DNA of 47,690 bases from an uncultured Methanosarcinales archaeon. Its GTDB lineage: Archaea > Nanobdellota > Nanobdellia > Woesearchaeales > GW2011-AR15. Shown here piece after piece: positions 618-44,960 of this stretch (within the stretch, counting starts at the first letter, position 1; each line of letters begins with the position of its first letter). The notes below the pieces were generated by a model. It ran no database searches, was not told where the DNA came from, and saw only the letters and a program-made list of their open reading frames with translations. Where the stretch lies: the NCBI GenBank assembly GCA_964392465.1, contig CAYMPC010000003.1, positions 1 through 47,690 of the forward strand, written 5' to 3'. A program made the position numbers and the translations under genes.

Positions 618-2000
618 CTAATTTTGAGAAAGTAATTGCCAAATTTCAACTTCCTGATAATCATATATTTTTTTAAAAGAAATGCTATTTAATAGAACAA
701 ATTGCATTCCTTCTTCTGGCTTTTCCCATACTTCTCCATTTTTCATTTTTTGGTTGATCCAGATATAATTTAAGTTATTATCATTTAAAAAGAGAGTTAT
801 ATTTTTAAGGTTTCTTGATGCAAAAATCTCCTCGCTCTTAAGGATTCTTGCCTTATCCTTAGAGTATAAAAGGTAATTATTATCGGTATAAGTTTTAAAT
901 CTGGAAATACTGTTTATTATAAATCCATATTTATGATAAGAAAAAACATCTCCTTCCGGAACATTGCTTTTTAACCATTCTAAACTTATTATTTCTGCGT
1001 TTTTTGGACCTTCTTGTAAAATCCTGTTTAAGTAAGAACCAGAAGAGAAAAGCAACCCGCAAAAAATCAAAAGGATAACATAACTTTTTAAAGTTGTGCT
1101 TTCCCATTCTCGCTCAGTTATTTTCATAAACGCCAATCCTGCAAAATAGGATAAAATTAAAGTAATAAATAAAATAATAAAACTTGCGTATAAAGAGCAA
1201 ATAAAAAGAAAAATAAGAATAAAATAAGAAAGTGCTTTTTCTTTCTTCGTTTTCCAAGAAAAGAATATTCCGAAAAGACCTAGAAAAAAGATAAAGATAC
1301 TAAAACCAAAAAGAGAACCTAGATCCGATATGTAATAAGTAACAAGATTGTATAAAGAAATATCTCTCAAAAGAGACGCGTATGTTATCCTAATAAAAAA
1401 ATAAGAAACCAGCGCTGTACTAATTAATGGAAAAACAAGGTTTCTGCTTTTAAATCTTTCATATAGAAATATCAACAAGAGAATAATTATCAAAAAAAAA
1501 GCAGGATTAAATAAGAACGAAAAAAGGAAAGATAAGAATCCTAAAAAATATAGGTCTCTTAAAAGTAAATAAGTTCCAAAAAAAAGAAAAAAGAGAGATA
1601 AAAAAAGAATATTATAAGTTAAAGTAAGATATAAAAAAAAAGGAGAAAAAACAAAAAAAATAGTGGTATACATCTTTTGCTCCTCTTTTTCAAGGACATT
1701 ATCTAAGATTTTTTTTATTAGGAAAACATTTAGAATACCAAAAAATATAGGAAGAATCCTCATAAAAAAAACAGGATACCGAGAAAAAGAGACAAGATAA
1801 TTAAGAAGGAAACTTGTTTCTTCTAAAAAAAGAATTATGTTGTTTGTGTTTTTTATTTGATTTATTTCTGATAAATGTTCATATTCTTCATAAGATAAGA
1901 AATTTGTGTTTTTTGAAAATTTAAAAAGATAAAAAGAAGAGATAACAAGGATCATACCCAAAAGAAGAACCATGTTTTTTTGTATCTCTTTCTGTTTCAT
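618..2000 (-). CDS. Polytopic GT-C-type membrane protein with C-terminal soluble domain, STT3/AglB-like architecture (paralog 3)
   Basis: Track ORF 618-2009 begins at TTG; the first ATG is at 2000 (MKQKEIQKNMVLLLG). Many hydrophobic segments, then a soluble tail containing EWLKSNVPEGDVFSYHKYGFIINS, which resembles the STT3 block W-L-x-x-N-T-P...WWDYG. First loop has LSYEEYEHLSEINQI. Confidence 0.5.
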   Translation of the reverse strand: MKQKEIQKNMVLLLGMILVISSFYLFKFSKNTNFLSYEEYEHLSEINQIKNTNNIILFLEETSFLLNYLVSFSRYPVFFMRILPIFFGILNVFLIKKILDNVLEKEEQKMYTTIFFVFSPFFLYLTLTYNILFLSLFFLFFGTYLLLRDLYFLGFLSFLFSFLFNPAFFLIIILLLIFLYERFKSRNLVFPLISTALVSYFFIRITYASLLRDISLYNLVTYYISDLGSLFGFSIFIFFLGLFGIFFSWKTKKEKALSYFILIFLFICSLYASFIILFITLILSYFAGLAFMKITEREWESTTLKSYVILLIFCGLLFSSGSYLNRILQEGPKNAEIISLEWLKSNVPEGDVFSYHKYGFIINSISRFKTYTDNNYLLYSKDKARILKSEEIFASRNLKNITLFLNDNNLNYIWINQKMKNGEVWEKPEEGMQFVLLNSISFKKIYDYQEVEIWQLLSQN

Positions 2001-2005
2001 TTTAA

Positions 2006-3517
2006 TCAAATCGCCTTCAATTCACACCGCTCTTTGTTTCTTTTGAAAATTTGCGCTTCCTTGGTATTATAAACCAAATCAAAGCACTTTTCATCTATTG
2101 TGCGCATTTGAGTAAGATTATACTCTTGCTTTGTTTTAGAAGAAAAAAGAACATAATCTGAATTATATTTGTTAAGGATTCTTAAGGTTTCAACTTTAAA
2201 AGAAGTTGTATATATTGTTTTTATGTCCTCGAATCTAATATCTACATCTTTTACGCCTAAATATTCTCTGTCCATGACATTTTTTCTAGCACCAAGATAA
2301 GTAATAAAATGACCCTCTTCAGGAATTGAAAAAATAATTGCTTCTTCGGGTGTGTTTTTTTGTAACCAAGAAAAAGTACCCATGTATTCATCTGTTGGTA
2401 TTTTTGATGTTATCTCTCCCATTATTAAAAAACTAGGAAGAGTATGCCCGAATAACAACAAAACAAAAACAACAAAGTATAATTTAGACTCATGGTCTGA
2501 AAACTTGGTTTTTTTGATTGTTGCAAAAAAGTCTGCCAGAAATTGTCCTAATAGTATTACAAGTGTAACTCCTAAAAACATTAAAGAAAGTTCTGCAGGC
2601 AAAAATTTAAACCAAAACATGAGAAAGGTAGATAAAAAAAAACTGATAAATAATAACATATTCCTGCTTTTTTTAAAAATAAGATATTTGTAAATTGTAT
2701 ATATGCCAAAAACAAAGGGGAATATGCCTATACTTGCTAGTGCTACAGAAAGATTAATTGAAGTAAAGTATTTATCTATTGTGCTTGCAGGAACATTATT
2801 CCAAATTACTGAAAAACCATTATTTTGAAATGCGAATTTAAATACTATAAAATTTGCCCATAAATAAAAGAAAATAAAAAACGTCATAAATTCAATTTTT
2901 ATTTTTTCGATTTCTACATTTTCAATATAGGATAAAATCAGATAAATTATCAGCCCAACAAGGATTAAAAAGGAATAAGGAGAAATCATTATCAACAATA
3001 GTGTTAGAAAAATCAGATTGTTCAGATTTTTTTTATCTCTCTCAAGCATAATAAAAAGATATAATAAAAGAAAGGTGGCTGGAAAAAGAAATGAATATAT
3101 GCTAAGTTTATTTAAAGTTTCATTTATATATAAAGGAAAAGAAGCAGCCGCAATAGAACATAGCAGAGAGACATTTCTGTTTTTTATTGTTTGTGAAGTA
3201 ATAAGGTATATTATAATAACTAATGTTGATGCAAAAAGGTTGTTTATTATTTTTAAAACTAATATCTTTGGAAATAACAAGGCAAAAAAAGCCATGATGT
3301 AAAAATAAACCGGCATAAAAACAAAAGTTCTTCCTCCATAGCTGAGTTCGTCTTGAATTAATGGCTTTCCCGTGCTTAAAATATGATCAATTTGCCTTAG
3401 TGCAAAATAAGAAGTATCATCACTGAAGTACTCTGACTGAAGAGAAAAATAAAGTCGAATAAAGAAATATGATAAAAAAAGTAAAGTTAATAAGATATGT
3501 CTGAATTTTATTTTCAT
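2006..3517 (-). CDS. Polytopic GT-C-type membrane protein, STT3/AglB-like architecture (paralog 2)
   Basis: 503 aa with an ATG start. First extracytoplasmic loop YFSDDTSYFALRQIDHILSTG resembles the STT3 DxD/DPxYH-R loop. C-terminal soluble part has FSWLQKNTPEEAIIFSIPEEGHFITYLGARKNVMD, i.e. the WLxxNTP block followed by a degenerate WWDYG position. Confidence 0.55.
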   Translation of the reverse strand: MKIKFRHILLTLLFLSYFFIRLYFSLQSEYFSDDTSYFALRQIDHILSTGKPLIQDELSYGGRTFVFMPVYFYIMAFFALLFPKILVLKIINNLFASTLVIIIYLITSQTIKNRNVSLLCSIAAASFPLYINETLNKLSIYSFLFPATFLLLYLFIMLERDKKNLNNLIFLTLLLIMISPYSFLILVGLIIYLILSYIENVEIEKIKIEFMTFFIFFYLWANFIVFKFAFQNNGFSVIWNNVPASTIDKYFTSINLSVALASIGIFPFVFGIYTIYKYLIFKKSRNMLLFISFFLSTFLMFWFKFLPAELSLMFLGVTLVILLGQFLADFFATIKKTKFSDHESKLYFVVFVLLLFGHTLPSFLIMGEITSKIPTDEYMGTFSWLQKNTPEEAIIFSIPEEGHFITYLGARKNVMDREYLGVKDVDIRFEDIKTIYTTSFKVETLRILNKYNSDYVLFSSKTKQEYNLTQMRTIDEKCFDLVYNTKEAQIFKRNKERCELKAI

Positions 3518-3548
3518 TTTAATTATAACCTATATTCTTATTTTATTT

Positions 3549-3962
3549 TTATATTTTAATATTTTTAACATGGAAAACAAGGGAAATAATAAATGTTAAA
3601 AAAGCAACTACAAAAAACAAGAGCTTTGTAATTGGAAACTTCAAAACAATATCCAATATAACATAAATAGCTGAATATGTTAAACCAAGCAAGTTTGTTA
3701 AAAAAAATCTCTCTATTGTGCTTAAATAAGGGATTTGTTGAATGAAAAAAACAAAAGGAAAATACATAAATAATAGATAAGTGAATGCTAGTTTAAAAGA
3801 CAAAACTATATCATTCAAAGGAAGCGTGATTATAAAGAAAATTACAAAACTGAGTAGACTGCTTTTAAGAATTTCATAAAAAGAAAACGCAGCTCCTTTT
3901 TCCTTGGTTGTGTCCTCTTGTTTATAATGTTTGATTTCGTTATAATTCTTCTTTTTTTTCAT
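3549..3962 (-). CDS. Small ~4-TM membrane protein, unknown function, embedded in the GT-C operon
   Basis: 137 aa: a Lys-rich N-terminus then about four hydrophobic helices. Its start overlaps the upstream gene's 3' end by 23 nt (3940-3962). No recognisable motif. Confidence 0.5.
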   Translation of the reverse strand: MKKKKNYNEIKHYKQEDTTKEKGAAFSFYEILKSSLLSFVIFFIITLPLNDIVLSFKLAFTYLLFMYFPFVFFIQQIPYLSTIERFFLTNLLGLTYSAIYVILDIVLKFPITKLLFFVVAFLTFIISLVFHVKNIKI

Positions 3963-13536: not shown

Positions 13537-13588
13537 AAAAAAAGCAGTGGGTGGGGTTTTGAAAGAAAAGTCACTTGCTGCTTTTTTT
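13537..13588 (+). promoter_or_regulatory. Long hairpin followed by a U-run in the putative 5' leader of the wHTH gene
   Basis: AAAAAAAGCAG (13537-13547) is perfectly complementary to CTGCTTTTTTT (13578-13588). The stem extends inward with G-U and Watson-Crick pairs to about 13554/13571. It is followed by TATTTTTAC and ATG at 13599. Confidence 0.4.
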
Positions 13589-13598
13589 ATTTTTACAA

Positions 13599-14525
13599 AT
13601 GAAAGCTTATATTGTAAAGGAAAAAGAAGGAAGCTTTGTATATAGCAACGCTATGATTGTTGAAAACCCTGATTCTATTAAGCTAATAGATCATCCAATA
13701 AGGCTGAAGATTCTTGATTTATTATCTAAGAAACCAATGTACCCTGCTGAACTGGCTAAAGAGCTAAAAATGCATGAACAAAAAGTATATTATCATATTA
13801 AGCAGATGTCCAATTCTGGATTACTAGAGGTTGTTGAAAAAGAAGAGATAAGGGGAACTATTGCCAAAAAACTCTCGCCAAAGGTTCTTAATTTTGCATT
13901 TACTCTATCAAAAGAATGGTCTGATTTACATAATCTGTTTAAGACAAAAGACAAAGAGGTTTTAAATTTCTTAACGCCTTTAATAAAAGAAGGTGTTCTG
14001 AATTCTAATATTGTTGTAGGCAGCCCTGATCCACATGGTCCACATAAAGCAAGAGCAAGAGATGGGCATTATGGAATTGATTTGGCTTTGTTTTTAGGAA
14101 GTTTGTGCAGTGCTGAAACAGAATTCAGCACAAAATTAGATGTTGATGTTGATTTAAAGCAAAGCAGAAACTTAATCCTTGTGGGAGGACCTGTAACCAA
14201 CTTACTTGTTAGTAAGGTAAATGATTTCCTTCCTGCAAAATTCTCAGATAAAAAACCTTGGGGTATTATATCTAAATTAAAAACCTATACTGAAGAAAGT
14301 ACGGGGATGGTATGCAAAATCCCCAACCCCTATAACCCTGAATATTTCATAATAGTAATAGCTGGCATTAGGTTTATTGGGACAAAAACAGCTGTGATGG
14401 CCTTTACTCGCAATACAAAGCAGGTAATTTACAGATTTACTGGCCAAAAAGAATTCTATTCTATTGTGCAGGGCTATGATATGGATGGGGATGGGAAGAT
14501 TGATAGTATTGAGGTGCTGGAATGA
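13599..14525 (+). CDS. Winged-helix (ArsR-like) DNA-binding domain fused to a ~200-aa uncharacterised C-terminal domain
   Basis: Track start at 13575 is TTG; the first ATG is at 13599. HPIRLKILDLLSKKPMYPAELAKELKMHEQKVYYHIKQMSNSGLLEVV is a typical ArsR/wHTH. The C-terminal part (NLILVGGPVTNLLV...) is not assignable. Confidence 0.65.
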   Translation: MKAYIVKEKEGSFVYSNAMIVENPDSIKLIDHPIRLKILDLLSKKPMYPAELAKELKMHEQKVYYHIKQMSNSGLLEVVEKEEIRGTIAKKLSPKVLNFAFTLSKEWSDLHNLFKTKDKEVLNFLTPLIKEGVLNSNIVVGSPDPHGPHKARARDGHYGIDLALFLGSLCSAETEFSTKLDVDVDLKQSRNLILVGGPVTNLLVSKVNDFLPAKFSDKKPWGIISKLKTYTEESTGMVCKIPNPYNPEYFIIVIAGIRFIGTKTAVMAFTRNTKQVIYRFTGQKEFYSIVQGYDMDGDGKIDSIEVLE

Positions 14526-38214: not shown

Positions 38215-39831
38215 TTATTTTTGTTGTTTCTTTTTTAATTTTTCTCTATATTGCCTTCTGGCTTCTTTCTGCTCATCTGTAAGTTTTGCTCTTTTTTTTA
38301 CTGTCTTGTTTAAAGCAAATGCTTTTCTTTTCGAGTATTGTACTGGGTTTTTTATTTTTTCACAAAGCAAATCTGGAAAACATACTCCAAAGTCTTGATA
38401 GTACTCTCTACAGTTTGGAGGTAATATCTTTTTGTTTTTTTGTCTGTGATATCTTAGTTGTCCTTTTATAATTCCTTCTCTTAGTGTTTCTTTATTTTTT
38501 TTGTTCCATTCTAAAAGGATTAATTCTATATTCTCATAACTCCAATTCAAGCTTGTCAAAAAGTTTGTCAATACAAAAAGAGATCTCTTCCTGCCATCTG
38601 GTATCCCTTCGAGTATTTTTAAGATACAGGGAGGAAAAAGTTCTGGGGGAACAGCATAGTCTAGATTTTCAAATGCTTGCTTTTTTTCCTTGCTTTTGTT
38701 TTCATCGTTTATAATATTCTTATAATGAATGTCTTCTTTTCCAAAATCAAAAGCAGAAATTAAAAGATTTTCTGCCTCTTTTCTTTTTACTTTTGAAACA
38801 TCTAAAAAAATAGGGTTTTCTTTTGTATTTATCTTTTCTGGCCTGGCGGTTTCTTTTTCAAAAGTAAGGATTTTTCCAATAGGTATGGGCAAAGAAACAA
38901 GACCAGACTTTTCATGCATACTATAGGGTGATCTGTACATGTGTCTTGACGATATCAAAACAGTATCTACATTAATAATAGAAAGAGAATCAAAAAACTC
39001 TTTTGGTGGTTCTTTTGCGCCGCATTGTTTACATCCTTTATCAGATGACTCAAATTTTGACATTAATATATTACATTTTGGGCAAATCATTATTTTTGAG
39101 TCTTGATCTTTTCTTATCTGTATATTACAGTTAGGGCAAACAAACTCAATTTTTTTAAAAGAACTGTTTTCGACCTTTTTTTTACACAAGGGACATTTTT
39201 TTACGCTAAGTTCTTGTATTGTCTTTCCTGTTATTTTTGATATGTCTTCTTTTGTTGTCTTATGGACTTTATCAAAAATGATTTCTCCTTCTTCGTTAAC
39301 TTCTATAAAATTATTAGAGATATAATCTAATAAGTAAAGTGCTATTTTTTTTGGTCCTTCTGGAAACCAGTTTTTTACAGGGATATTATTTATAATTTCT
39401 GGAAATGCCTCAAAGGGAACCCCTATATGGAATCCTTTGTTCCCTGAAAATTTACAGCTAATAGATTCTACTCCGTGTTTTTTTAATGCTTTTATAAATA
39501 AATAGGTTGTAAGTTTTGAATAATACCAAAAGGGGCAATCTACATCTAAAACAAGATCCCACCCAATTCTCAAGTTATCTAAATCTTCTTTTCTCATTTC
39601 AGTTGTCAATTCAAGGGGATTGTTCCATCTCTCTTCAGAAAGGTGAAAACTGGTTGCTCCTTTTTTAACAAATTCGAGAAGATCTGTTTCATATACAAGA
39701 ATATCTGGTCTTTTTCCGAATCCGTTTTCTCCAAATTTTACTCCCACTTCCTTATTTTTGCTTGATTCAAGAATTGCCACCTGAACTTCCTTCTTTTTAT
39801 AATAAAGTAATCTTTGGCTTATGTCGAACAT
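38215..39831 (-). CDS. priS: Fused archaeo-eukaryotic primase: PriS catalytic domain + two zinc ribbons + PriL C-terminal (4-Cys, Fe-S type) domain
   Basis: Track start at 39846 is TTG; the ATG is at 39831. AEP motif I WDLVLDVDCP, motif II SGNKGFHIGVP, motif III SSRHMYRSPYSMHEKSGLVSLPI. Zinc ribbons: CPLCKK..CPNCN and CPKCN..CKQCG. C-terminal FPPCILKILEG..GRKRSLFVLTNFL...ILPPNCREYYQDFGVCFPDLLCEKIKNPVQY matches the PriL-CTD pattern (PPC...C...C..C..NP..Y). Confidence 0.8.
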   Translation of the reverse strand: MFDISQRLLYYKKKEVQVAILESSKNKEVGVKFGENGFGKRPDILVYETDLLEFVKKGATSFHLSEERWNNPLELTTEMRKEDLDNLRIGWDLVLDVDCPFWYYSKLTTYLFIKALKKHGVESISCKFSGNKGFHIGVPFEAFPEIINNIPVKNWFPEGPKKIALYLLDYISNNFIEVNEEGEIIFDKVHKTTKEDISKITGKTIQELSVKKCPLCKKKVENSSFKKIEFVCPNCNIQIRKDQDSKIMICPKCNILMSKFESSDKGCKQCGAKEPPKEFFDSLSIINVDTVLISSRHMYRSPYSMHEKSGLVSLPIPIGKILTFEKETARPEKINTKENPIFLDVSKVKRKEAENLLISAFDFGKEDIHYKNIINDENKSKEKKQAFENLDYAVPPELFPPCILKILEGIPDGRKRSLFVLTNFLTSLNWSYENIELILLEWNKKNKETLREGIIKGQLRYHRQKNKKILPPNCREYYQDFGVCFPDLLCEKIKNPVQYSKRKAFALNKTVKKRAKLTDEQKEARRQYREKLKKKQQK

Positions 39832-39852
39832 ATCTAAAAAAAACAAGAATAA

Positions 39853-39860
39853 ATTTATAT
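39853..39860. promoter_or_regulatory. Single A/T box (ATTTATAT) in the 53-bp divergent spacer between the primase and Toprim genes
   Basis: Lies 25-32 nt from ATG 39885 (+) and 22-29 nt from ATG 39831 (-). It is the only TATA-like element in the spacer. Confidence 0.35.
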
Positions 39861-39884
39861 TGTTTTATGTTGTAGAGATACAAC

Positions 39885-40250
39885 ATGAACAAGGAAAAAG
39901 ACAAGGAAAAAGAAAAAGTGTTGTTGCTTGAAGAATTAGAAAAACTTAGATGCAAAGATCTACCTATTATTGTAGAAGGGAAAAAAGATAAAATCTGTTT
40001 GAACAATCTTGGGTTTTCAAAAATATTTGTCCTTAATGGAGCAATATATGCTTTCTCTGAAAATTTTTCAAAAAAACATAAAAAAGCCATTGTGTTGACT
40101 GACTTGGATAAAGAAGGTAAAAAACTATATTCTTCTTTAAAGGAGAACTTAGAAAAAAACCATGTGAAAATAGACAACAATTTTAGAAATTTCCTATTCA
40201 AAAACACAAAAATCAGGCAAATTGAGGGCATTATTTCTTACTTAAATTAA
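39885..40250 (+). CDS. Minimal stand-alone Toprim domain protein
   Basis: 121 aa. Conserved Glu in PIIVEGKKDK and the DxD motif in VLTDLDKEGKKLY define a Toprim fold; no other domain is present. Confidence 0.7.
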   Translation: MNKEKDKEKEKVLLLEELEKLRCKDLPIIVEGKKDKICLNNLGFSKIFVLNGAIYAFSENFSKKHKKAIVLTDLDKEGKKLYSSLKENLEKNHVKIDNNFRNFLFKNTKIRQIEGIISYLN

Positions 40251-42312
40251 CTCTTTGATATTTAATTATATAAAAAAGGGCAATGCCTGTAGAAAACAAA
40301 ACTAAGTAAAAAAAATAAGTCTGTATTTTTTGATTTTTGGAAGAATATACGACTTCTCCTGTTATCTGGTTTCCATTAAGAGAGTGTGTGTTGTTTTCTT
40401 GTTTTTCTAGATTGTGTTCTTTTTGGATTTGGCTATTGGTTTTTTGTTCTGTTTTTTTGTTTGAATCTTCGTTCGGATTAGAATAAACGTAAACTGTTTC
40501 TGTAATTTCATACGGTGTCTTTCTATCTTCTCTTTGAATTTTTATTTTTAAACTAATGTTATTCTGATCAAAAAAAATTAATTTGTTGTTAATAAGTATG
40601 ATTTTACTAGAAACTGGCCCTATTTGAACTTCTGTTTTTTCTTCTTCACTATATTTTTTATTTCCTTTGTATAAATGACTTGACAAAGAATAACTGTGTT
40701 GGATATTATCTGAATTAAATATTTCGAGGATTGAAAAAACAGTATCGCTATTTGATAGGTTAGTTGTGTAATCTAAAAGAGAATACTGCTTTTTGTCATA
40801 AGGAATAGAAGTTGTTTGTTTTTCTTTATTGCCGCATTCTCCTTCAACAACTATCTCTTTTTTTGTTTTTATACCTAACCCTTCAACAACAATAAAATAG
40901 TTTTTGTTAGATTCACATACAAAAGATATTGGTAAAAAAAACTCTGTTTCCTGATAATTTTCTTCTAAATATATTGTCGATGTCTCGCTTTGTTTTTTTC
41001 CTTCGCTTTCATTATATAATGATATTGGTTTTTTTGTCGTGTTCCCTTTATAAATTGAAAGCTTTGCCTTTCCTAAACTATTTTTGGCAGAATAACTTAT
41101 TTCTTTAATATCTATCTTGCTTTCAATTTCTCTTTTTGTTTTGTAAATTATTAAATAATCGGAAAAAATGTTTTTATTTGAATTATTACAAGAAAGATTA
41201 CTTACCTCTGCTTTAATAAAAAAAATATTATTGTTTTGATTTGGAGAAAAGATTTTTTTATTTATATTTGTAGTTTTTGTTTTACTCTTAATTGATTCGC
41301 CATATAAATCCTCTATCCAATATTCTATTTCAAAAGGAAAAGAAGTATTGCTTAACGCAAAAGAATATTCAATTTTTTCTCCTTCTTCATAAATGGTTTT
41401 AGGTATTTGAATTGAGAGACTTACATTACAAGGAATTGTATCTATATCCAAGACTTCAGCTAATACACATAATTTATTGTTGGTTATGTTTTTATCCGGT
41501 TCGAAAAATACTTCTCCGCAAACAATATACTCCCCAGATAAATCAAAAAACATGTTTTCTGTTGTTTTGGTTGTGTAATAATTAAAAGAAACATCTATTG
41601 TTGTATCATTAATAAACAAAAAAGAAACATTGTTGCTATCGTTGTTGCTATTATTATTAAAATAAGTAATATTAAAATTAAAAACAGCATTGATTTTTTC
41701 ATTATATGTAGGATAATTATGATTTATGATTTTAAAAAAAGTATCATATTTTGTTTTTGTGTAAAGGTTTTCTTTATGATTGAAAAAAAGTCCCAAATCA
41801 ACACCAGAAACTTCTGTCTCTTCGCTTTTTATGTTTTTTCCCCAGGGAGTTGGTGTAGATTCTAGCCATCCTTCTTCGAAAAAAGAAAAAGTGTTGCCTT
41901 TTTTTATTGAAAAATTATAAAAAAAATCAAGATATGTAGTGTTTTCCGTATGTAAAACAAGTTTATCTCCTGTGTTTCCTAATCCATTGCCAATAAAATT
42001 GTCATCGACACAAAAAAAAACACTGTTTTCTGAAATATTAAATGTTGCGCCTTGATCCAATATCAAAAAAAAAGTATTATTTGAAACTAATTTGCTGCAG
42101 TTTAATTGTGATGGACAGCAATCGACTTCGTCTGTCTGCATGTTATCTGTTATTTTTAATCCAGCTACACTAAATAGTCCTTCCCCTTCATAATAAAGTT
42201 CAATCCACTCTTTTTCATCTTCGGGAATAAACATAATTTCATTTATCCTTATTTCTGCTTTCACATAAACAGATAATAATATCATCAACAAAACAAATAA
42301 AACGCTTTTCAT
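40231..42312 (-). CDS. Secreted, C-terminally TM-anchored surface protein with N-terminal lamin-tail domain (LTD); Asn-rich, sequon-rich
   Basis: Signal peptide MKSVLFVLLMILLSVYVKA; LTD signature IRINEIMFIPEDEKEWIELYYEG...LKITDN; about 20 N-x-S/T sequons by hand count; C-terminal TM TYFFYLVLFSTGIALFYII followed by a basic tail. Confidence 0.7.
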   Translation of the reverse strand: MKSVLFVLLMILLSVYVKAEIRINEIMFIPEDEKEWIELYYEGEGLFSVAGLKITDNMQTDEVDCCPSQLNCSKLVSNNTFFLILDQGATFNISENSVFFCVDDNFIGNGLGNTGDKLVLHTENTTYLDFFYNFSIKKGNTFSFFEEGWLESTPTPWGKNIKSEETEVSGVDLGLFFNHKENLYTKTKYDTFFKIINHNYPTYNEKINAVFNFNITYFNNNSNNDSNNVSFLFINDTTIDVSFNYYTTKTTENMFFDLSGEYIVCGEVFFEPDKNITNNKLCVLAEVLDIDTIPCNVSLSIQIPKTIYEEGEKIEYSFALSNTSFPFEIEYWIEDLYGESIKSKTKTTNINKKIFSPNQNNNIFFIKAEVSNLSCNNSNKNIFSDYLIIYKTKREIESKIDIKEISYSAKNSLGKAKLSIYKGNTTKKPISLYNESEGKKQSETSTIYLEENYQETEFFLPISFVCESNKNYFIVVEGLGIKTKKEIVVEGECGNKEKQTTSIPYDKKQYSLLDYTTNLSNSDTVFSILEIFNSDNIQHSYSLSSHLYKGNKKYSEEEKTEVQIGPVSSKIILINNKLIFFDQNNISLKIKIQREDRKTPYEITETVYVYSNPNEDSNKKTEQKTNSQIQKEHNLEKQENNTHSLNGNQITGEVVYSSKNQKIQTYFFYLVLFSTGIALFYIIKYQRVNLSKK

Positions 42313-42529
42313 TATTTTGGTTTTTAATCTTAGGTAATATAAATAGTTTTCTAATTTTAGTAATATAATAATAATATTAAACTTAAAAAAGCATATTTTA
42401 TTAATAAATAAGTTTATTTTTAAAAAGAAAAATAAATAAGTTATTTTATAAATAAAATATCAAGCAAGAAAAAGTAAGAAAATAATAAAAAGTTTTAAAA
42501 ACTAGAGGAAACTTATTTTACTAGGAAAA

Positions 42530-43402
42530 ATGGGGTTTTTTGAGAATTTTAAAAAAAAAGAGGAAAATAATATGGGTGCACCGCAAAGTGTTCCTACTAT
42601 GAATAATAATAATCTTTCTACAAATGAAAATTTTGTATTACCCCCTCCTCCGCTTCCAAAAAAAAATTTGTCTTTTGATAAAAATACCTCTTCAAATATT
42701 GTAGTTCCTCCTGCTCCTCTTTTTTCTCAAAGCACCACTAACGCTTCTGCTATTCCAAATATAAATTCCCCGCCTCCGTTGCCACTTCCTCAACAAATTC
42801 AACCCGCGCCTCCTTTTAGCTTTCCTTCCAATCAATTAAATTTACAAGAATCAAAAAAAGAAGAAACTAACTATGCAAAAACCAATTCTAATTTATATGA
42901 AAAAAAAGAAGCATATATAGAAACACCCTTAACTTTTGAACAACCCAATAATACTAAAACTCCTGGTTTTCTTCCTTTAATGCCTCCTGTCAGGCAGCAA
43001 ACAAAAAACTTCTCTTCTTTTTCTTCTTCTATCCCCTCCTTTGATATAGAAAAAGAAGAAATACCTTCCTTTTCAACACAAGAAGAAACAAATATAAAAG
43101 AGGAAGCAGAATCTCTCCCTATCTTAGAAATATTTGATTCTGAAGAAGAAATGCCAAATATGGATTTTAGACATTCTGAATTGAAAAAGCCCTTGTTTAT
43201 AAGAACAGATTATTTCAGCCAAGTTCTCTCTACGCTCGATTCTATAAAAGAATATGTCACAGAATCTCCTGAAATTATTTCAGGATTAGAAAATCTTAAG
43301 AAAAACAGCGATATTGAAAACAGAAATTATAAAAATTCACTTGAAGATATCCAAAGAAAGTTAATTTATATAGACAAAGTACTATTTGAAAAAGAGGGAT
43401 AA
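42530..43402 (+). CDS. Uncharacterised protein: N-terminal amphipathic MGFFENFKKK, long Pro/Asn/Ser-rich linker with PPPPLP-type motifs, C-terminal ~66-aa helical domain
   Basis: No known motif. The C-terminal 66 aa align without gaps to the downstream 75-aa protein (24/66 identical by hand). Confidence 0.6.
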   Translation: MGFFENFKKKEENNMGAPQSVPTMNNNNLSTNENFVLPPPPLPKKNLSFDKNTSSNIVVPPAPLFSQSTTNASAIPNINSPPPLPLPQQIQPAPPFSFPSNQLNLQESKKEETNYAKTNSNLYEKKEAYIETPLTFEQPNNTKTPGFLPLMPPVRQQTKNFSSFSSSIPSFDIEKEEIPSFSTQEETNIKEEAESLPILEIFDSEEEMPNMDFRHSELKKPLFIRTDYFSQVLSTLDSIKEYVTESPEIISGLENLKKNSDIENRNYKNSLEDIQRKLIYIDKVLFEKEG

Positions 43403-43404
43403 TC

Positions 43405-43632
43405 ATGGATAAAGATAAAAATGTCTTTGTGAAGATAGAAGAATATAATGAGATCTTGGATATAGTCGCTTTAATTAATCAAAAAGTAAAAGAAGCAAGA
43501 ACTATCTTGGGAAAAATAAATGATTTAAAAAACCAGGAAGATCTTGAGTTGGATGTATGGAAAAACTCACTTGATGATGTTGAGAGAAAGTTAAGATATA
43601 TTGATCAAACCTTATTTGAACCAAGATATTAA
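43405..43632 (+). CDS. Uncharacterised 75-aa helical protein, stand-alone copy of the C-terminal domain of the upstream gene
   Basis: VFVKIEEYNEILDIVALINQKVKEARTILGKINDLKNQEDLELDVWKNSLDDVERKLRYIDQTLFE versus LFIRTDYFSQVLSTLDSIKEYVTESPEIISGLENLKKNSDIENRNYKNSLEDIQRKLIYIDKVLFE. The start lies 2 nt after the upstream stop, with GAGGG 6 nt upstream. Confidence 0.6.
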   Translation: MDKDKNVFVKIEEYNEILDIVALINQKVKEARTILGKINDLKNQEDLELDVWKNSLDDVERKLRYIDQTLFEPRY

Positions 43633-43633
43633 A

Positions 43634-43993
43634 ATGAGTGAAAAAGATTATTTTGTTGGGATATATGATCCTTTGGATGTGCGAAGAAATTTATTAGAAT
43701 CTTCTAAGGAGATAATAAAATCTCTGCAATCTTATGAAAGACTTGAAAAGATAAGAGAGGAAAAACTGAGATTATACAGGGAAATGAAAAGACTAAGTGC
43801 TGAACTTGATCTACTGGTTTCAAAGATTAAGCAAAACCTTCCAACTTCTGGATTGAGAAGGACATTAAAATCAAAACAAAAAAGTTTTAGTTCATTAAAT
43901 GTCTCTCCCGGAGGAAAAAAGTTTTCTTCTGAACTTCAAAAATTAGAAGAGCAGCTTAGAGAAGTTGAAAAACAGCTTTCTTTTATGACTTAG
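43634..43993 (+). CDS. Uncharacterised 119-aa predicted coiled-coil protein
   Basis: Track start at 43601 is TTG inside the upstream gene; the ATG at 43634 lies 1 nt after the upstream stop. Heptad-like EKIREEKLRLYREMKRLSAELDLLVSKIKQNLP and C-terminal ELQKLEEQLREVEKQLSF. Confidence 0.55.
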   Translation: MSEKDYFVGIYDPLDVRRNLLESSKEIIKSLQSYERLEKIREEKLRLYREMKRLSAELDLLVSKIKQNLPTSGLRRTLKSKQKSFSSLNVSPGGKKFSSELQKLEEQLREVEKQLSFMT

Positions 43994-44010: not shown

Positions 44011-44032
44011 GGATTTTGTTTTTTAATTAGAT

Positions 44033-44245
44033 ATGTGTCTCCAAATTCCTGGAAAAGTAATAAGTATTAAAGGGAAAAAAGCTATAATTGATTATGATAT
44101 AGAAAAAAGAGAAGCGGTAATTGCAGATATTTCTCCTAAAGAAGGAGAATGGGTTTTAGTTGTTGGAAAATTTATTGTTGAGATTGTTCCTGAAAAGATT
44201 GGAAGAAAAAGCCTTAATCATTGGAAAAAAACAATGCTTGGTTGA
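44033..44245 (+). CDS. HypC/HybG/HupF-family small beta-barrel protein
   Basis: N-terminus MCLQIPGKVISI matches the family signature MC[LI]x[IV]PG. GEWVLVVGKFIVEIV sits where HypC has GxWVLVHVGFA. 70 aa. Confidence 0.7.
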   Translation: MCLQIPGKVISIKGKKAIIDYDIEKREAVIADISPKEGEWVLVVGKFIVEIVPEKIGRKSLNHWKKTMLG

Positions 44246-44960
44246 GTGTTTCTATGTTTTTTGTTGTGTATTTTTTAATGTGTGTTTCTTCTTTTTTTGT
44301 CAAAATTTTACAAGCAAAATCCCAGTGAATTGCAATACTATCGTTTGTTTTTAAATTAGGAAGGAACCAATCCACATATTCTATATATTGTATTTCTGGT
44401 TTGGCATAAGTTAGTTGGTTTTGCCTAAAAACTAAAGGTGATGCAGAAACAAGAAGTTGTTCTTTCATTATCTTCAAAACCTTCCCTACAGAAATAACAC
44501 ATTTGTTCATTGTTTGTATATTTGTTGGCACAGAACCTGTTGTTTTTCCCACCCCTACAAATAAAACATTAAAAGAATGATGTGGATTTACTCCTTCGGG
44601 TAATTTGTTTATAAGAAACCTAGCGTGCTTTTCTGGCAAGCCTCTTTTTGTTAATGCCATAATTATTTCCTTTATGTCTTTTTTTGAAAAGGAATCTAGC
44701 AATTTATTTCCTATCCAGTAACTTTCAACAACATCATAATCGAAAGGGTTTTTATTATGCTTTTTGGCAATATGTTCAAGATACACATATAGGCCCTCGT
44801 ATTTGGAAAAATGTGTTTCTATCTTTTTTTTATCATATTTTTTACCCTTTAGCATTAGATAAAAATCTGTGTAAGAATCCTTTGGTCCACAATACCTCAA
44901 CCTATTTGTTATAGAAGAAAATCTACATGCAAGCTCTAAGCCTTTTTCTTTGTTGCCCAT
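44214..44960 (-). CDS. Conserved hypothetical protein with a C-terminal HypC-like segment
   Basis: N-terminal LRYCGP motif. The C-terminal part KCVISVGKVLKI....NDSIAIHWDFACKILTKKEE parallels HypC MC[IV]xxPGxVxxI....WVLVHVGFAxxxIxxxEA. From memory it resembles a DUF family (DUF6390), which I cannot verify here. Confidence 0.55.
   Translation of the reverse strand: MGNKEKGLELACRFSSITNRLRYCGPKDSYTDFYLMLKGKKYDKKKIETHFSKYEGLYVYLEHIAKKHNKNPFDYDVVESYWIGNKLLDSFSKKDIKEIIMALTKRGLPEKHARFLINKLPEGVNPHHSFNVLFVGVGKTTGSVPTNIQTMNKCVISVGKVLKIMKEQLLVSASPLVFRQNQLTYAKPEIQYIEYVDWFLPNLKTNDSIAIHWDFACKILTKKEETHIKKYTTKNIETLNQALFFSND

What the first reader, a model, noticed from the sequence alone, without database searches (positions are those of the whole stretch)
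42530..43993. Translationally coupled trio of uncharacterised coiled-coil proteins, two sharing a ~66-aa domain
Three + strand genes are packed with 2-nt and 1-nt gaps (stop 43402 / ATG 43405; stop 43632 / ATG 43634).

Protein 1 (290 aa) begins with a short amphipathic MGFFENFKKK. A ~200-aa low-complexity linker follows, carrying polyproline motifs (LPPPPLPKK, VVPPAPLF, NSPPPLPLPQQIQPAPPF) and an acidic stretch (ILEIFDSEEEMP). It ends in a helical domain.

Protein 2 (75 aa) is essentially that domain alone. The two align without gaps over 66 residues with about 24 identities, including a shared KNSL[ED]D[IV][EQ]RKLxYIDxxLFE end. Protein 3 (119 aa) is another heptad-rich helix protein with a similar ELQKLEEQLREVEKQLSF end.

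I recognise none of these as a known family. A membrane-targeting helix, a Pro-rich spacer and an interaction domain, plus free copies of that domain, recalls membrane tethers of cytoskeletal or division machinery such as ZipA or SepF. That analogy is to architecture only, not homology.

The trio is divergently transcribed from the large surface-protein gene across a 217-bp AT-rich spacer.
Basis: partly seen in the sequence, partly recalled or inferred. Interest (0 to 1): 0.7.

Follow-up and report, generated by a model that had tools for sequence, protein, structure and literature searches.

The report
Conserved archaeal membrane-to-DNA tether candidate
Three tightly packed genes found throughout one group of tiny DPANN archaea (Woesearchaeota) encode uncharacterised long-helix proteins that probably form one complex, possibly linking the cell membrane to the chromosome; none belongs to any described protein family.

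Summary
Three + strand genes (290, 75 and 119 aa) lie 2 and 1 nt apart. The C-terminal domain of protein 1 (P1C) and all of P2 are true paralogues (25/68 identities, no gaps; hhalign 99.2%).

The trio is a real operon, kept in the same order in every recovered related locus long enough to hold all three genes. All loci with credible organism labels are Woesearchaeota/"Nanoarchaeota" MAGs. The family is large (about 1,400 P2 clusters). No protein matches Pfam, NCBIfam, PDB sequences or PDB folds.

AlphaFold2 gives P2 and P3 the same build: a short hydrophobic N-terminal segment and one 56-61-residue helix. P1C, P2 and P3 share one eight-heptad frame with a basic residue at the same core position.

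P1 family-wide has an N-terminal MGFFxxFKKKK motif, a (D/E)LPPPP motif and a Pro-rich disordered spacer of 48-328 aa. P3 has a Lys-rich linker that in some relatives carries inserted helix-hairpin-helix (HhH) or C2H2 zinc-finger modules.

Flanking genes are recurrently ScpB, GyrA, PCNA, MCM and PriL. FtsZ was never found.

Best reading: a membrane-anchored heteromeric coiled coil that binds DNA and acts in chromosome organisation or segregation. The ZipA/SepF analogy holds for P1's architecture only. Function is inferred, not shown.

The parts
42487..42501 (+). Putative archaeal promoter: A-rich BRE-like AAAAAG followed by the TATA-like TTTTAAAAA, about 30 nt upstream of the P1 ATG
   Evidence: The motif AAAAAG-N-TTTAAAAA is conserved at the same distance from the P1 start in 6 of 6 window-type loci. 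TATA-like boxes sit in the same place in L027, L030 and L047. The function is inferred.
42530..43402 (+). P1, 290 aa: N-terminal motif, Pro-rich disordered spacer, acidic patch, then a C-terminal strand-plus-long-helix domain
   Evidence: ORF. 35 word-index homologues. A mixed P1+P2 profile finds 2,645 representatives at E <= 1e-3. No Pfam domain in any of 124 P1-type proteins.
42530..42562 (+). P1 residues 1-11, MGFFENFKKKE: proposed membrane-targeting motif (three aromatics at i, i+1, i+4, then a Lys run)
   Evidence: 78 of 131 P1-type proteins match M-[GAV]-[FLIM]-[FLIKM]-x-x-[FLVIM]. Among the 95 that start M[GAV], the commonest residues are G2 79/95, F3 60, F4 59, F7 53, K8 55, K9 70, K10 60, K11 53. 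G2 is invariant in A1. Eisenberg hydrophobic moment 0.40-0.46. Membrane binding is inferred.
42638..42658 (+). P1 residues 37-43, LPPPPLP: conserved polyproline short linear motif
   Evidence: An [LMIVF]P[PAVTS]PP motif occurs within the first 70 residues in 73 of 131 P1-type proteins. It is visible as (D/E)LPPPP in distant members.
42563..43174 (+). P1 residues 12-215: low-complexity Pro/Asn/Ser-rich spacer, ending in an acidic patch (residues 171-215, nt 43040-43174, net charge -12)
   Evidence: Composition P 14.6%, N 11.7%, S 11.2%. Across the family the spacer is 48-328 aa (median 157) with 19% Pro. The 45 aa before the domain are net negative in 95 of 131 proteins. No structure prediction was run on P1; disorder is inferred from composition and poor alignment.
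43187..43390 (+). P1 residues 220-287 (P1C): PLFIRT segment plus an eight-heptad helix with the invariant E-x-x-QRK-x-IY-x-D
   Evidence: Paralogous to P2. Invariant columns. Heptad frame.
43405..43632 (+). P2, 75 aa: free copy of the domain (NVFVKI segment plus a single helix, residues 11-71); the most conserved subunit
   Evidence: AlphaFold2 mean pLDDT 86, helix 11-71. 68-85% identical across the ten distinct window-type loci, where PriL is 55-65% and the surface protein 30-36%. 1,394 clusters at E <= 0.01.
43634..43993 (+). P3, 119 aa: YFVGI segment, long helix 13-68, basic linker, C-terminal amphipathic helix 96-118
   Evidence: AlphaFold2: helix 13-68 with pLDDT 96-98, residues 89-94 below 50, helix 96-118. 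77 homologues.
43844..43927 (+). P3 residues 71-98: Lys/Arg-rich flexible linker (net +7), proposed DNA-binding element
   Evidence: Net positive in 69 of 74 homologues (median +6, K+R 28%). In relatives this linker carries an inserted HhH domain (P0110, PF14520, 45.5 bits), C2H2 zinc fingers (P0104, P0083; 21-22 bits, below Pfam cut-off) or an H1-like poly-Lys tail (P0085).
43919..43987 (+). P3 residues 96-118: conserved C-terminal helix, consensus SELxKLExELxxIExKLxxL
   Evidence: Alignments A3 and A6. pLDDT 80-87. The partner is unknown.
44014..44024 (+). T-tract TTTTGTTTTTT after the P3 stop: a possible archaeal oligo-T terminator
   Evidence: Read directly from the sequence. Inferred only.
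40231..42312 (-). Divergent 693-aa protein with a signal-peptide-like N-terminus and a C-terminal hydrophobic anchor: a frequent but not universal neighbour of the trio
   Evidence: Homologue directly upstream and divergent in both synteny types, but absent in L030, L035, L038 and L047. The L029 homologue has a weak LTD (lamin tail domain) hit. The window protein has no Pfam hit.

Best explanation
The three genes form one operon whose products assemble, through P1C, P2 and P3, into a parallel, in-register heteromeric coiled coil of three or more helices.

P1 anchors this rod to the cytoplasmic face of the membrane. It does so through its N-terminal aromatic/poly-Lys motif and holds the rod at the end of a long Pro-rich flexible spacer that carries short docking motifs.

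P3 contributes a Lys-rich linker that binds DNA, plus a C-terminal helix for a further partner.

The complex would therefore bridge membrane and chromosome. It would act in nucleoid organisation or segregation, possibly coupled to division, in Woesearchaeota-type DPANN archaea.

Shown here: operon conservation, P1C-P2 paralogy, helix predictions, motif conservation, DNA-binding domain insertions and synteny.

Inferred, not shown: complex formation, membrane binding, DNA binding and the cellular role.
For: (1) Operon. The order P1-P2-P3 is kept in every recovered locus long enough to hold all three genes. In ten loci with called genes, the junctions range from an 8-nt overlap to a 19-nt gap. 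One conserved BRE/TATA-like element sits upstream of P1.

(2) Common build. P2 has a helix at 11-71 and P3 at 13-68, each after a short hydrophobic segment. P1C is homologous to P2. In one shared frame, positions a and d are 0.66-0.89 hydrophobic and position g 0.37-0.38 in all three proteins. The fifth 'a' position is K, K and R. The hydrophobic patterns of P2 and P3 correlate best at the in-register offset (r = 0.39).

(3) P2 is 68-85% identical across the ten distinct window-type loci, where PriL is 55-65% and the surface protein 30-36%. This fits a hub packed on several faces.

(4) The P1 N-terminal motif and polyproline motif are family-wide, while spacer length is free at 48-328 aa.

(5) The P3 linker is basic in 69 of 74 homologues. 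In relatives it holds an HhH domain (45.5 bits, E = 1e-11), C2H2 fingers or an H1-like tail. The HhH variant sits in a canonical trio.

(6) Synteny. ScpB plus an MJ0538-family gene lies divergently upstream in 14 distinct loci, often with GyrA. PCNA is within about 5 kb in 11 distinct loci. MCM-TBP-PriL-Toprim is upstream in 10 others.
Against: - No experiment and no multimer prediction supports the complex.
- AlphaFold2 monomer models of long helices say nothing about partners.
- P3 is not detectably homologous to P1C or P2. The frame match is modest: r = 0.39 as the best of about 50 offsets.
- The N-terminal motif is short and only moderately amphipathic (0.40-0.46). It could be a protein-docking peptide instead.
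- DNA-binding insertions occur in only about 4 of 77 P3 homologues. The two zinc-finger hits are below Pfam cut-offs.
- A Lys-rich linker could bind acidic lipids, RNA or P1's acidic patch.
- Synteny within one archaeal order may partly reflect inherited gene order. The neighbours are general housekeeping genes, and several loci have unrelated neighbours such as pyrimidine, purine or tRNA-synthetase genes.
Confidence: 0.4

Rival explanations
1. One reading: a divisome membrane tether. P1 would be a ZipA/SepF-like anchor whose coiled coil, with P2 and P3, recruits or bundles FtsZ or another cytokinetic polymer.
For: P1's layout of N-terminal membrane motif, flexible linker and C-terminal interaction domain mirrors SepF (PMC8178401). 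Woesearchaeota and 93% of tested DPANN genomes encode FtsZ. Small coiled-coil accessory proteins such as ZapB are typical of divisomes (my own knowledge).
Against: No FtsZ signature occurs in 382 kb of window plus fetched loci. The domain is a single helix, not a SepF or ZipA fold, and has no Pfam hit. Archaeal SepF is reported to co-occur systematically with FtsZ, including in DPANN, so no anchor is obviously missing. The DNA-binding insertions in P3 are not explained, unless the complex links the chromosome to the Z-ring as in the MatP-ZapB-ZapA linkage.
Confidence: 0.15
2. A soluble nucleoid or replisome scaffold with no membrane role. The P1 N-terminal and polyproline motifs would be docking peptides for chromosomal proteins such as SMC/ScpB, PCNA or the MCM/primase machinery. 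The coiled coil plus the P3 linker would bind DNA.
For: Same synteny and DNA-binding-module evidence as the best explanation. The N-terminal motif is only about 10 residues with a modest hydrophobic moment. JGI labels one P3 homologue 'regulator of replication initiation timing', a weak automatic name.
Against: The pattern of aromatic i, i+1, i+4 followed by KKKK at the extreme N-terminus is typical of membrane-targeting sequences. No canonical PIP box (PCNA-interacting peptide, Qxx[LIM]xx[FY][FY]) is present in any of the three proteins, by direct reading.
Confidence: 0.15
3. A cell-envelope adaptor. The trio would be the cytoplasmic partner of the divergently transcribed surface protein, or of the glycosyltransferases downstream in relatives, for example anchoring or exporting it.
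For: The roughly 560-810-aa surface protein is the immediate divergent neighbour in both synteny types, in about 17 distinct loci. GT2-DUF2304-GT4/GT9 genes follow the trio in several window-type loci.
Against: The surface protein is absent next to the trio in L030, L035, L038 and L047. In this window the downstream glycosyltransferases are replaced by hypC. The surface protein evolves fast (27-35% identity) while P2 is 68-85% identical. The DNA-binding inserts are not explained.
Confidence: 0.07
4. A highly derived ESCRT-like membrane-remodelling module. The P1 N-terminus would act like the H0/ANCHR helices of PspA, Vipp1 or Snf7. P1's polyproline would act like a MIM2 motif, and the P3 C-terminal helix (D-I-E-x-K-L-x-x-L-K/R) like a MIM1 motif, recruiting an MIT-domain ATPase.
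For: Motif-level resemblance only, recalled from memory. The phi-P-x-phi-P definition of MIM2 is given in PMC8970359. ESCRT-III is reported missing from DPANN (PMC7619361), so an unrecognised substitute is conceivable.
Against: No Snf7 or PspA Pfam hit even at E <= 1. The proteins are far shorter than ESCRT-III. No AAA ATPase with a GPPGTGKT Walker A motif lies near any locus. Vps4 normally accompanies ESCRT-III.
Confidence: 0.04

Closest known systems
SepF (archaeal and bacterial FtsZ membrane anchor)
   Same: An N-terminal amphipathic membrane-binding helix of about 12 residues, a flexible linker and a C-terminal interaction domain (PMC8178401). This matches P1's order of parts.
   Different: The SepF core is a five-stranded beta-sheet with two helices that binds the FtsZ C-terminal peptide. 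P1C/P2 is a single helix of about 60 residues. There is no Pfam or PDB similarity. The P1 spacer is much longer and Pro-rich. Two extra subunits are co-encoded.
ZipA (gammaproteobacterial FtsZ tether)
   Same: A membrane anchor followed by a long Pro/Gln-rich unstructured tether and a C-terminal binding domain (my own knowledge).
   Different: ZipA uses a transmembrane helix and a globular alpha/beta FtsZ-binding domain. No sequence match was found. No FtsZ link was found here.
Noc and RicO (bacterial proteins that bridge DNA and membrane through an amphipathic helix)
   Same: One amphipathic helix binds the membrane and another module binds DNA, bridging chromosome and membrane. RicO acts together with SMC in segregation (bioRxiv 10.64898/2026.03.06.710092). 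This is the proposed working principle.
   Different: Those are single polypeptides with folded, sequence-specific DNA-binding domains. Here the two activities would sit on different subunits joined by a coiled coil. The DNA-binding element would be a basic disordered linker. There is no homology.
MatP-ZapB-ZapA Ter linkage, and CdvA
   Same: Small coiled-coil proteins that connect chromosome to division machinery. CdvA is an archaeal protein with a coiled coil that binds both membrane and DNA (my own knowledge).
   Different: No ZapA, ZapB or PRC-barrel signature was found. CdvA has an N-terminal PRC barrel and an ESCRT-III-binding tail, which are absent here.

Membership tests
SepF (PF04472) | Conserved alpha/beta SepF core domain detectable by profile | tested here: not met
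   No Pfam hit to SepF for P1, P2 or P3 at E <= 1. No domain of any kind in 124 P1-type proteins at E <= 1e-3. No SepF chain in the PDB profile searches.
SepF (PF04472) | Five-stranded sheet plus two helices | tested here: not met
   AlphaFold2 predicts one continuous helix, residues 11-71, for P2, the paralogue of P1C (pLDDT 86).
SepF (PF04472) | N-terminal amphipathic membrane helix plus flexible linker | tested here: inconclusive
   The conserved N-terminal motif and disordered spacer are present. Membrane binding was not tested.
SepF / ZipA | Binds the FtsZ C-terminal peptide; genomic or phyletic link to ftsZ | tested here: not met
   No GGGTG[ST]G tubulin signature in 382 kb of window plus fetched loci. 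Binding itself cannot be tested with these tools.
ZipA (PF04354) | N-terminal transmembrane helix and a C-terminal globular ZipA_C domain | tested here: not met
   No hydrophobic span of transmembrane length in P1 (direct reading). No Pfam hit.
ESCRT-III superfamily (Snf7, PspA/Vipp1) | Five-helix core of about 200 aa with an alpha1-alpha2 hairpin, detectable by the Snf7 or PspA profiles | tested here: not met
   No Snf7 or PspA hits at E <= 1. P2 and P3 are 75 and 119 aa, with single long helices rather than a hairpin.
ESCRT-III superfamily (Snf7, PspA/Vipp1) | Accompanying Vps4/CdvC ATPase with an MIT domain | tested here: inconclusive
   No GPPGTGKT Walker A motif within the fetched flanks. 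Whole genomes could not be searched. A review states that ESCRT-III is absent from DPANN.
ZapA / ZapB | Match to the ZapA (PF05164) or ZapB (PF06005) profile | tested here: not met
   Neither family appears among the Pfam hits for the window proteins or among the 25 families matched by the most members in each alignment scan (the P3 scan matched 192 families in all). Only scattered generic coiled-coil hits below cut-off were listed.
CdvA | N-terminal PRC beta-barrel and a C-terminal ESCRT-III-binding peptide | tested here: not met
   No PRC hit. The P1 N-terminal region is a 10-residue motif followed by a low-complexity spacer.
Membrane-DNA bridging proteins (Noc/RicO type; a functional class, not a homology family) | A membrane-binding amphipathic element | tested here: inconclusive
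   The P1 N-terminal motif matches the pattern M[GAV][FLIM][FLIKM]xx[FLVIM] in 78 of 131 P1-type proteins. Hydrophobic moment 0.40-0.46. There is no binding assay.
Membrane-DNA bridging proteins (Noc/RicO type; a functional class, not a homology family) | A DNA-binding element in the same protein or complex | tested here: inconclusive
   The P3 linker is basic in 69 of 74 homologues. Relatives carry HhH (above the Pfam cut-off) and C2H2 (below the cut-off) inserts. DNA binding by the window's P3 was not tested.

The most novel reading that the evidence does not exclude
The trio is a previously unrecognised, lineage-wide cell-biological machine of Woesearchaeota-type DPANN archaea. It would be a three-subunit coiled-coil complex, built from protein families with no known relatives, that physically couples the chromosome to the cell membrane or division site. 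It would act with ScpB/SMC, and its DNA-binding element would be a disordered basic linker rather than a folded domain.
Probability: 0.25. Interest if true: 0.8.

Novelty: new variant of a known kind. Interest (0 to 1): 0.62.

Why it matters
DPANN archaea make up a large part of archaeal diversity, yet almost nothing is known about how these tiny, mostly uncultured cells organise their chromosome and divide.

This operon is one of the best-conserved genes-of-unknown-function units in Woesearchaeota. P2 is 68-85% identical across the window-type loci, where the DNA primase large subunit is only 55-65% identical. It has no Pfam, NCBIfam or PDB relative.

If it is a membrane-chromosome tether, it would be a non-homologous archaeal counterpart of bacterial Noc, RicO or the MatP-ZapB linkage. 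It would also give a concrete handle on DPANN cell-cycle biology: three small proteins that are easy to express.

Even if the function differs, defining three new families and their shared eight-heptad template is useful for annotation. The profile searches found about 1,400 clusters (P2 profile, 90% identity) and 2,645 representatives (mixed P1+P2 profile, 50% identity).

Tried and rejected
- Pfam for the three proteins, for 30 P1/P2 members, 38 P3 members and 124 P1-type members, and NCBIfam for the three proteins. Only sub-threshold generic coiled-coil noise (NPV_P10, FlgN, Seryl_tRNA_N, ASRP).
- PDB sequence searches with single sequences and profiles. Nothing below E = 0.002, and nothing coherent.
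- Foldseek of both AlphaFold2 models against the PDB. Zero matches, as expected for single long helices.
- P3 as a paralogue of P2/P1C. Rejected at sequence level. Only a frame-level resemblance remains.
- FtsZ or Vps4 in the neighbourhood. None found.
- The MJ0538-family gene next to ScpB as ScpA. The PDB profile search gave only weak winged-helix hits and no ScpA. The local Pfam and NCBIfam copies gave nothing. No paper mentions MJ0538.
- Literature searches for any description of such a DPANN operon. None found.
- Taxon names for distant members. None available.
- The metagenome scan gave only 13 loci.
- Multimer prediction was not possible.
- A canonical PIP box was looked for by eye in all three proteins and not found.
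Full report
**1. Observation**

P1 is 42530-43402 (290 aa), P2 is 43405-43632 (75 aa) and P3 is 43634-43993 (119 aa). All are on the + strand, separated by 2 nt and 1 nt.

All quoted motifs are present. The spacer to the divergent 693-aa gene is 217 bp with GC of about 0.13-0.2.

P1 residues 220-287 align with P2 residues 5-72 without gaps, 25/68 identical, E = 4e-14. Orthologue profiles of the two align at 99.2% probability, E = 2.6e-19. P1C and P2 are therefore true paralogues.

P3 shows no sequence similarity to either.

**2. These are real, conserved genes forming one unit**

P1 has 35 homologues in the word-index search, and P3 has 77. A P2 profile finds 1,394 clusters at 90% identity. 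An exhaustive HMMER search with a mixed P1+P2 profile finds 2,645 representatives at 50% identity, 996 of them below 1e-10.

Every credible organism label is a Woesearchaeota, 'Nanoarchaeota' or unclassified archaeal MAG. One cluster is named for archaeon GW2011_AR15 and is seen on a contig of 1.16 Mb. All source names are 'hypothetical protein' or evident mis-annotations.

The order P1-P2-P3 is kept in every recovered locus long enough to hold all three genes. In ten loci with called genes, the junctions range from an 8-nt overlap to a 19-nt gap.

A BRE/TATA-like element, AAAAAG-TTTTAAAAA at 42487-42501, is conserved about 30 nt upstream of the P1 start in all six window-type loci aligned. 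A T-tract follows P3.

P2 is 68-85% identical across the ten distinct window-type loci. There MCM is 74-77%, PriL 55-65% and the surface protein 30-36% identical. That is remarkable constraint for a 75-residue protein.

**3. Not a known family**

All of the following gave nothing above noise:
- Pfam on the three proteins, on 30 P1/P2 members, on 38 P3 members and on 124 P1-type members;
- NCBIfam;
- PDB sequence and profile searches;
- Foldseek against the PDB.

No paper describing such an operon was found.

**4. Anatomy**

AlphaFold2 with family alignments predicts P2 as a short extended N-terminal segment (NVFVKI) followed by one helix, residues 11-71 (mean pLDDT 86).

P3 is predicted as YFVGI plus one helix, residues 13-68 (pLDDT 96-98). 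This is followed by a low-confidence basic linker and a C-terminal helix, residues 96-118. P1C, by homology to P2, is PLFIRT plus a helix of the same length.

Placed in one heptad frame, all three families have 0.66-0.89 hydrophobic residues at positions a and d, and 0.37-0.38 at position g. Hydrophobic g positions are more typical of bundles of three or more helices than of dimers (my own knowledge).

The fifth 'a' position is basic in all three: K in P2, K in P1C and R in P3. All three helices end at a Pro or LFE-P.

The hydrophobicity profiles of P2 and P3 correlate best at the in-register offset (r = 0.39). The corresponding P1C-P3 offset ranks second.

I infer a parallel, in-register heteromeric coiled coil. 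This is inference from operon structure and shared template, not a demonstrated complex.

P1's other parts are family-wide features:
- The N-terminal pattern M-[GAV]-[FLIM]-[FLIKM]-x-x-[FLVIM] is matched by 78 of 131 P1-type proteins. The consensus is MGFFDxFKKKK, and G2 is invariant in the first alignment.
- A (D/E)LPPPP motif follows soon after.
- The Pro-rich spacer has a free length of 48-328 aa, which suggests a tether rather than a fold.
- An acidic patch lies just before the domain. It is net -12 in this window and net negative in 95 of 131 proteins.

The three aromatics at i, i+1 and i+4 followed by four lysines look like a short membrane-targeting sequence. This compares with the 12-residue amphipathic helix of archaeal SepF (PMC8178401). 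Membrane binding is inferred.

**5. Clues to function**

*(a) The P3 linker.* The linker lies between the long helix and the C-terminal helix. It is net positive in 69 of 74 homologues (median +6, 28% Lys+Arg).

In some relatives exactly this linker carries an inserted nucleic-acid-binding module:
- P0110 carries a helix-hairpin-helix domain (PF14520, 45.5 bits, E = 1e-11, residues 115-169).
- P0104 and P0083 carry classical C2H2 zinc fingers (21-22 bits, below the Pfam cut-off, but the CxxC...HxxxH pattern is plain).
- P0085 carries an H1-like KKK-rich tail.

The HhH variant sits in a canonical trio. These independent insertions at one site argue that the linker's job is to bind DNA.

*(b) Synteny.* Two main arrangements exist (ScpB and PCNA verified by Pfam):
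- In 14 distinct loci: (GyrA)-ScpB-MJ0538-family gene, sometimes the surface protein, divergent from P1-P2-P3, often followed by RNase J and PCNA.
- In 10 distinct loci, including this window: MCM-TBP-carbohydrate kinase-PriL-Toprim-surface protein, divergent from the trio.

PCNA lies within about 5 kb in 11 distinct loci. A Holliday-junction resolvase (Hjc) is nearby in L047.

A few loci have unrelated neighbours. No FtsZ signature and no classical AAA Walker A motif occurs in the 382 kb examined.

**6. Mechanism proposed (confidence 0.4)**

P1 anchors a P1C-P2-P3 coiled-coil rod to the membrane through its N-terminal motif and long flexible spacer. P3 binds DNA through its basic linker. The complex thereby bridges membrane and chromosome and acts in nucleoid organisation or segregation, perhaps with ScpB/SMC, possibly coupled to division.

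The working principle resembles Noc and the recently described RicO. RicO has a DNA-binding domain plus an amphipathic helix and acts synergistically with SMC. Here, however, the activities would be split over subunits and built from unrelated proteins.

**7. Rivals**

- An FtsZ tether of the ZipA/SepF type (0.15). This fits P1's architecture and the presence of FtsZ in these archaea. It has no genomic support, and SepF is reported to accompany FtsZ throughout archaea.
- A soluble nucleoid or replisome scaffold with the N-terminal motif as a docking peptide (0.15).
- An envelope adaptor for the divergent surface protein (0.07). That neighbour is frequent but not universal and evolves far faster than the trio.
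- A derived ESCRT-like module (0.04). It rests only on motif resemblances recalled from memory. ESCRT-III is reported absent from DPANN, and no profile support exists.

**8. Novelty and verdict**

The three protein families are undescribed, and the three-subunit design has no published counterpart that I could find. The probable kind of function, a peripheral membrane tether linking to the chromosome or cell-cycle machinery, is known from non-homologous bacterial systems. I therefore rate it a new variant of a known kind, interest 0.62.

The evidence redirects the likely partner from FtsZ to the chromosome.

Noticed in passing
window 39797-40250: The 144-aa ORF on the - strand (39797-40231) is probably spurious. 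The overlapping + strand ORF 39885-40250 (121 aa) is 55-60% identical to the Toprim-domain proteins called at the same position in L004 and L001. It overlaps the 3' end of the surface-protein gene by 20 nt, convergently.
   Followed up: yes
L012:1067-2645, L030:5006-6936, L047:2671-4046 and 11 other loci: ScpB is always preceded by an overlapping gene of about 200 aa from the MJ0538 family (PF27325 in the precomputed hits). That gene has a C-terminal winged-helix-like region. It sits where a kleisin ScpA might be expected, but a profile search of the PDB finds no ScpA, only weak ArsR-type hits. It may be an uncharacterised ScpB partner in these archaea.
   Followed up: partly
window 44033-44960: A HypC/HupF-family gene (70 aa, + strand) overlaps convergently by 32 nt with a DUF6390 gene (248 aa, - strand). 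No hydrogenase gene was identified among the window ORFs that were scanned with Pfam. In related loci this position holds GT2-DUF2304-GT4 genes instead.
   Followed up: no
L001/L007, L009, L010, L016, L018, L022 (record titles): TPA assemblies titled 'uncultured Methanosarcinales archaeon' carry loci with Woesearchaeota-type gene order. Four of them (L001/L007, L009, L010, L016) also encode TBP 91-94% identical to the window's. The taxon labels look wrong.
   Followed up: no
window 38215-39846: The 543-aa 'PriL' matches PriL models only in its C-terminal third (residues about 375-533, far below the cut-offs). It has a weak Zn-ribbon/TFE-like stretch around residues 194-269. One relative also shows a weak DNA_primase_S hit, so this may be a fused or unusual primase subunit.
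   Followed up: no
window 618-3962: Three consecutive - strand ORFs (463, 503 and 137 aa) have no Pfam hit. The next ORF (553 aa) matches only DUF6541.
   Followed up: no
window 1-47690: No tRNA gene and no Rfam family at gathering threshold in the whole 47.7-kb window, despite a block of short - strand ORFs at about 20.9-33 kb next to SecY that looks like a ribosomal-protein cluster (those ORFs were not scanned).
   Followed up: yes
window 13575-14525: A 316-aa protein combines an ArsR-type HTH domain (residues 39-87) with an S_layer_C outer-domain hit (residues 186-278), which is an odd pairing.
   Followed up: no
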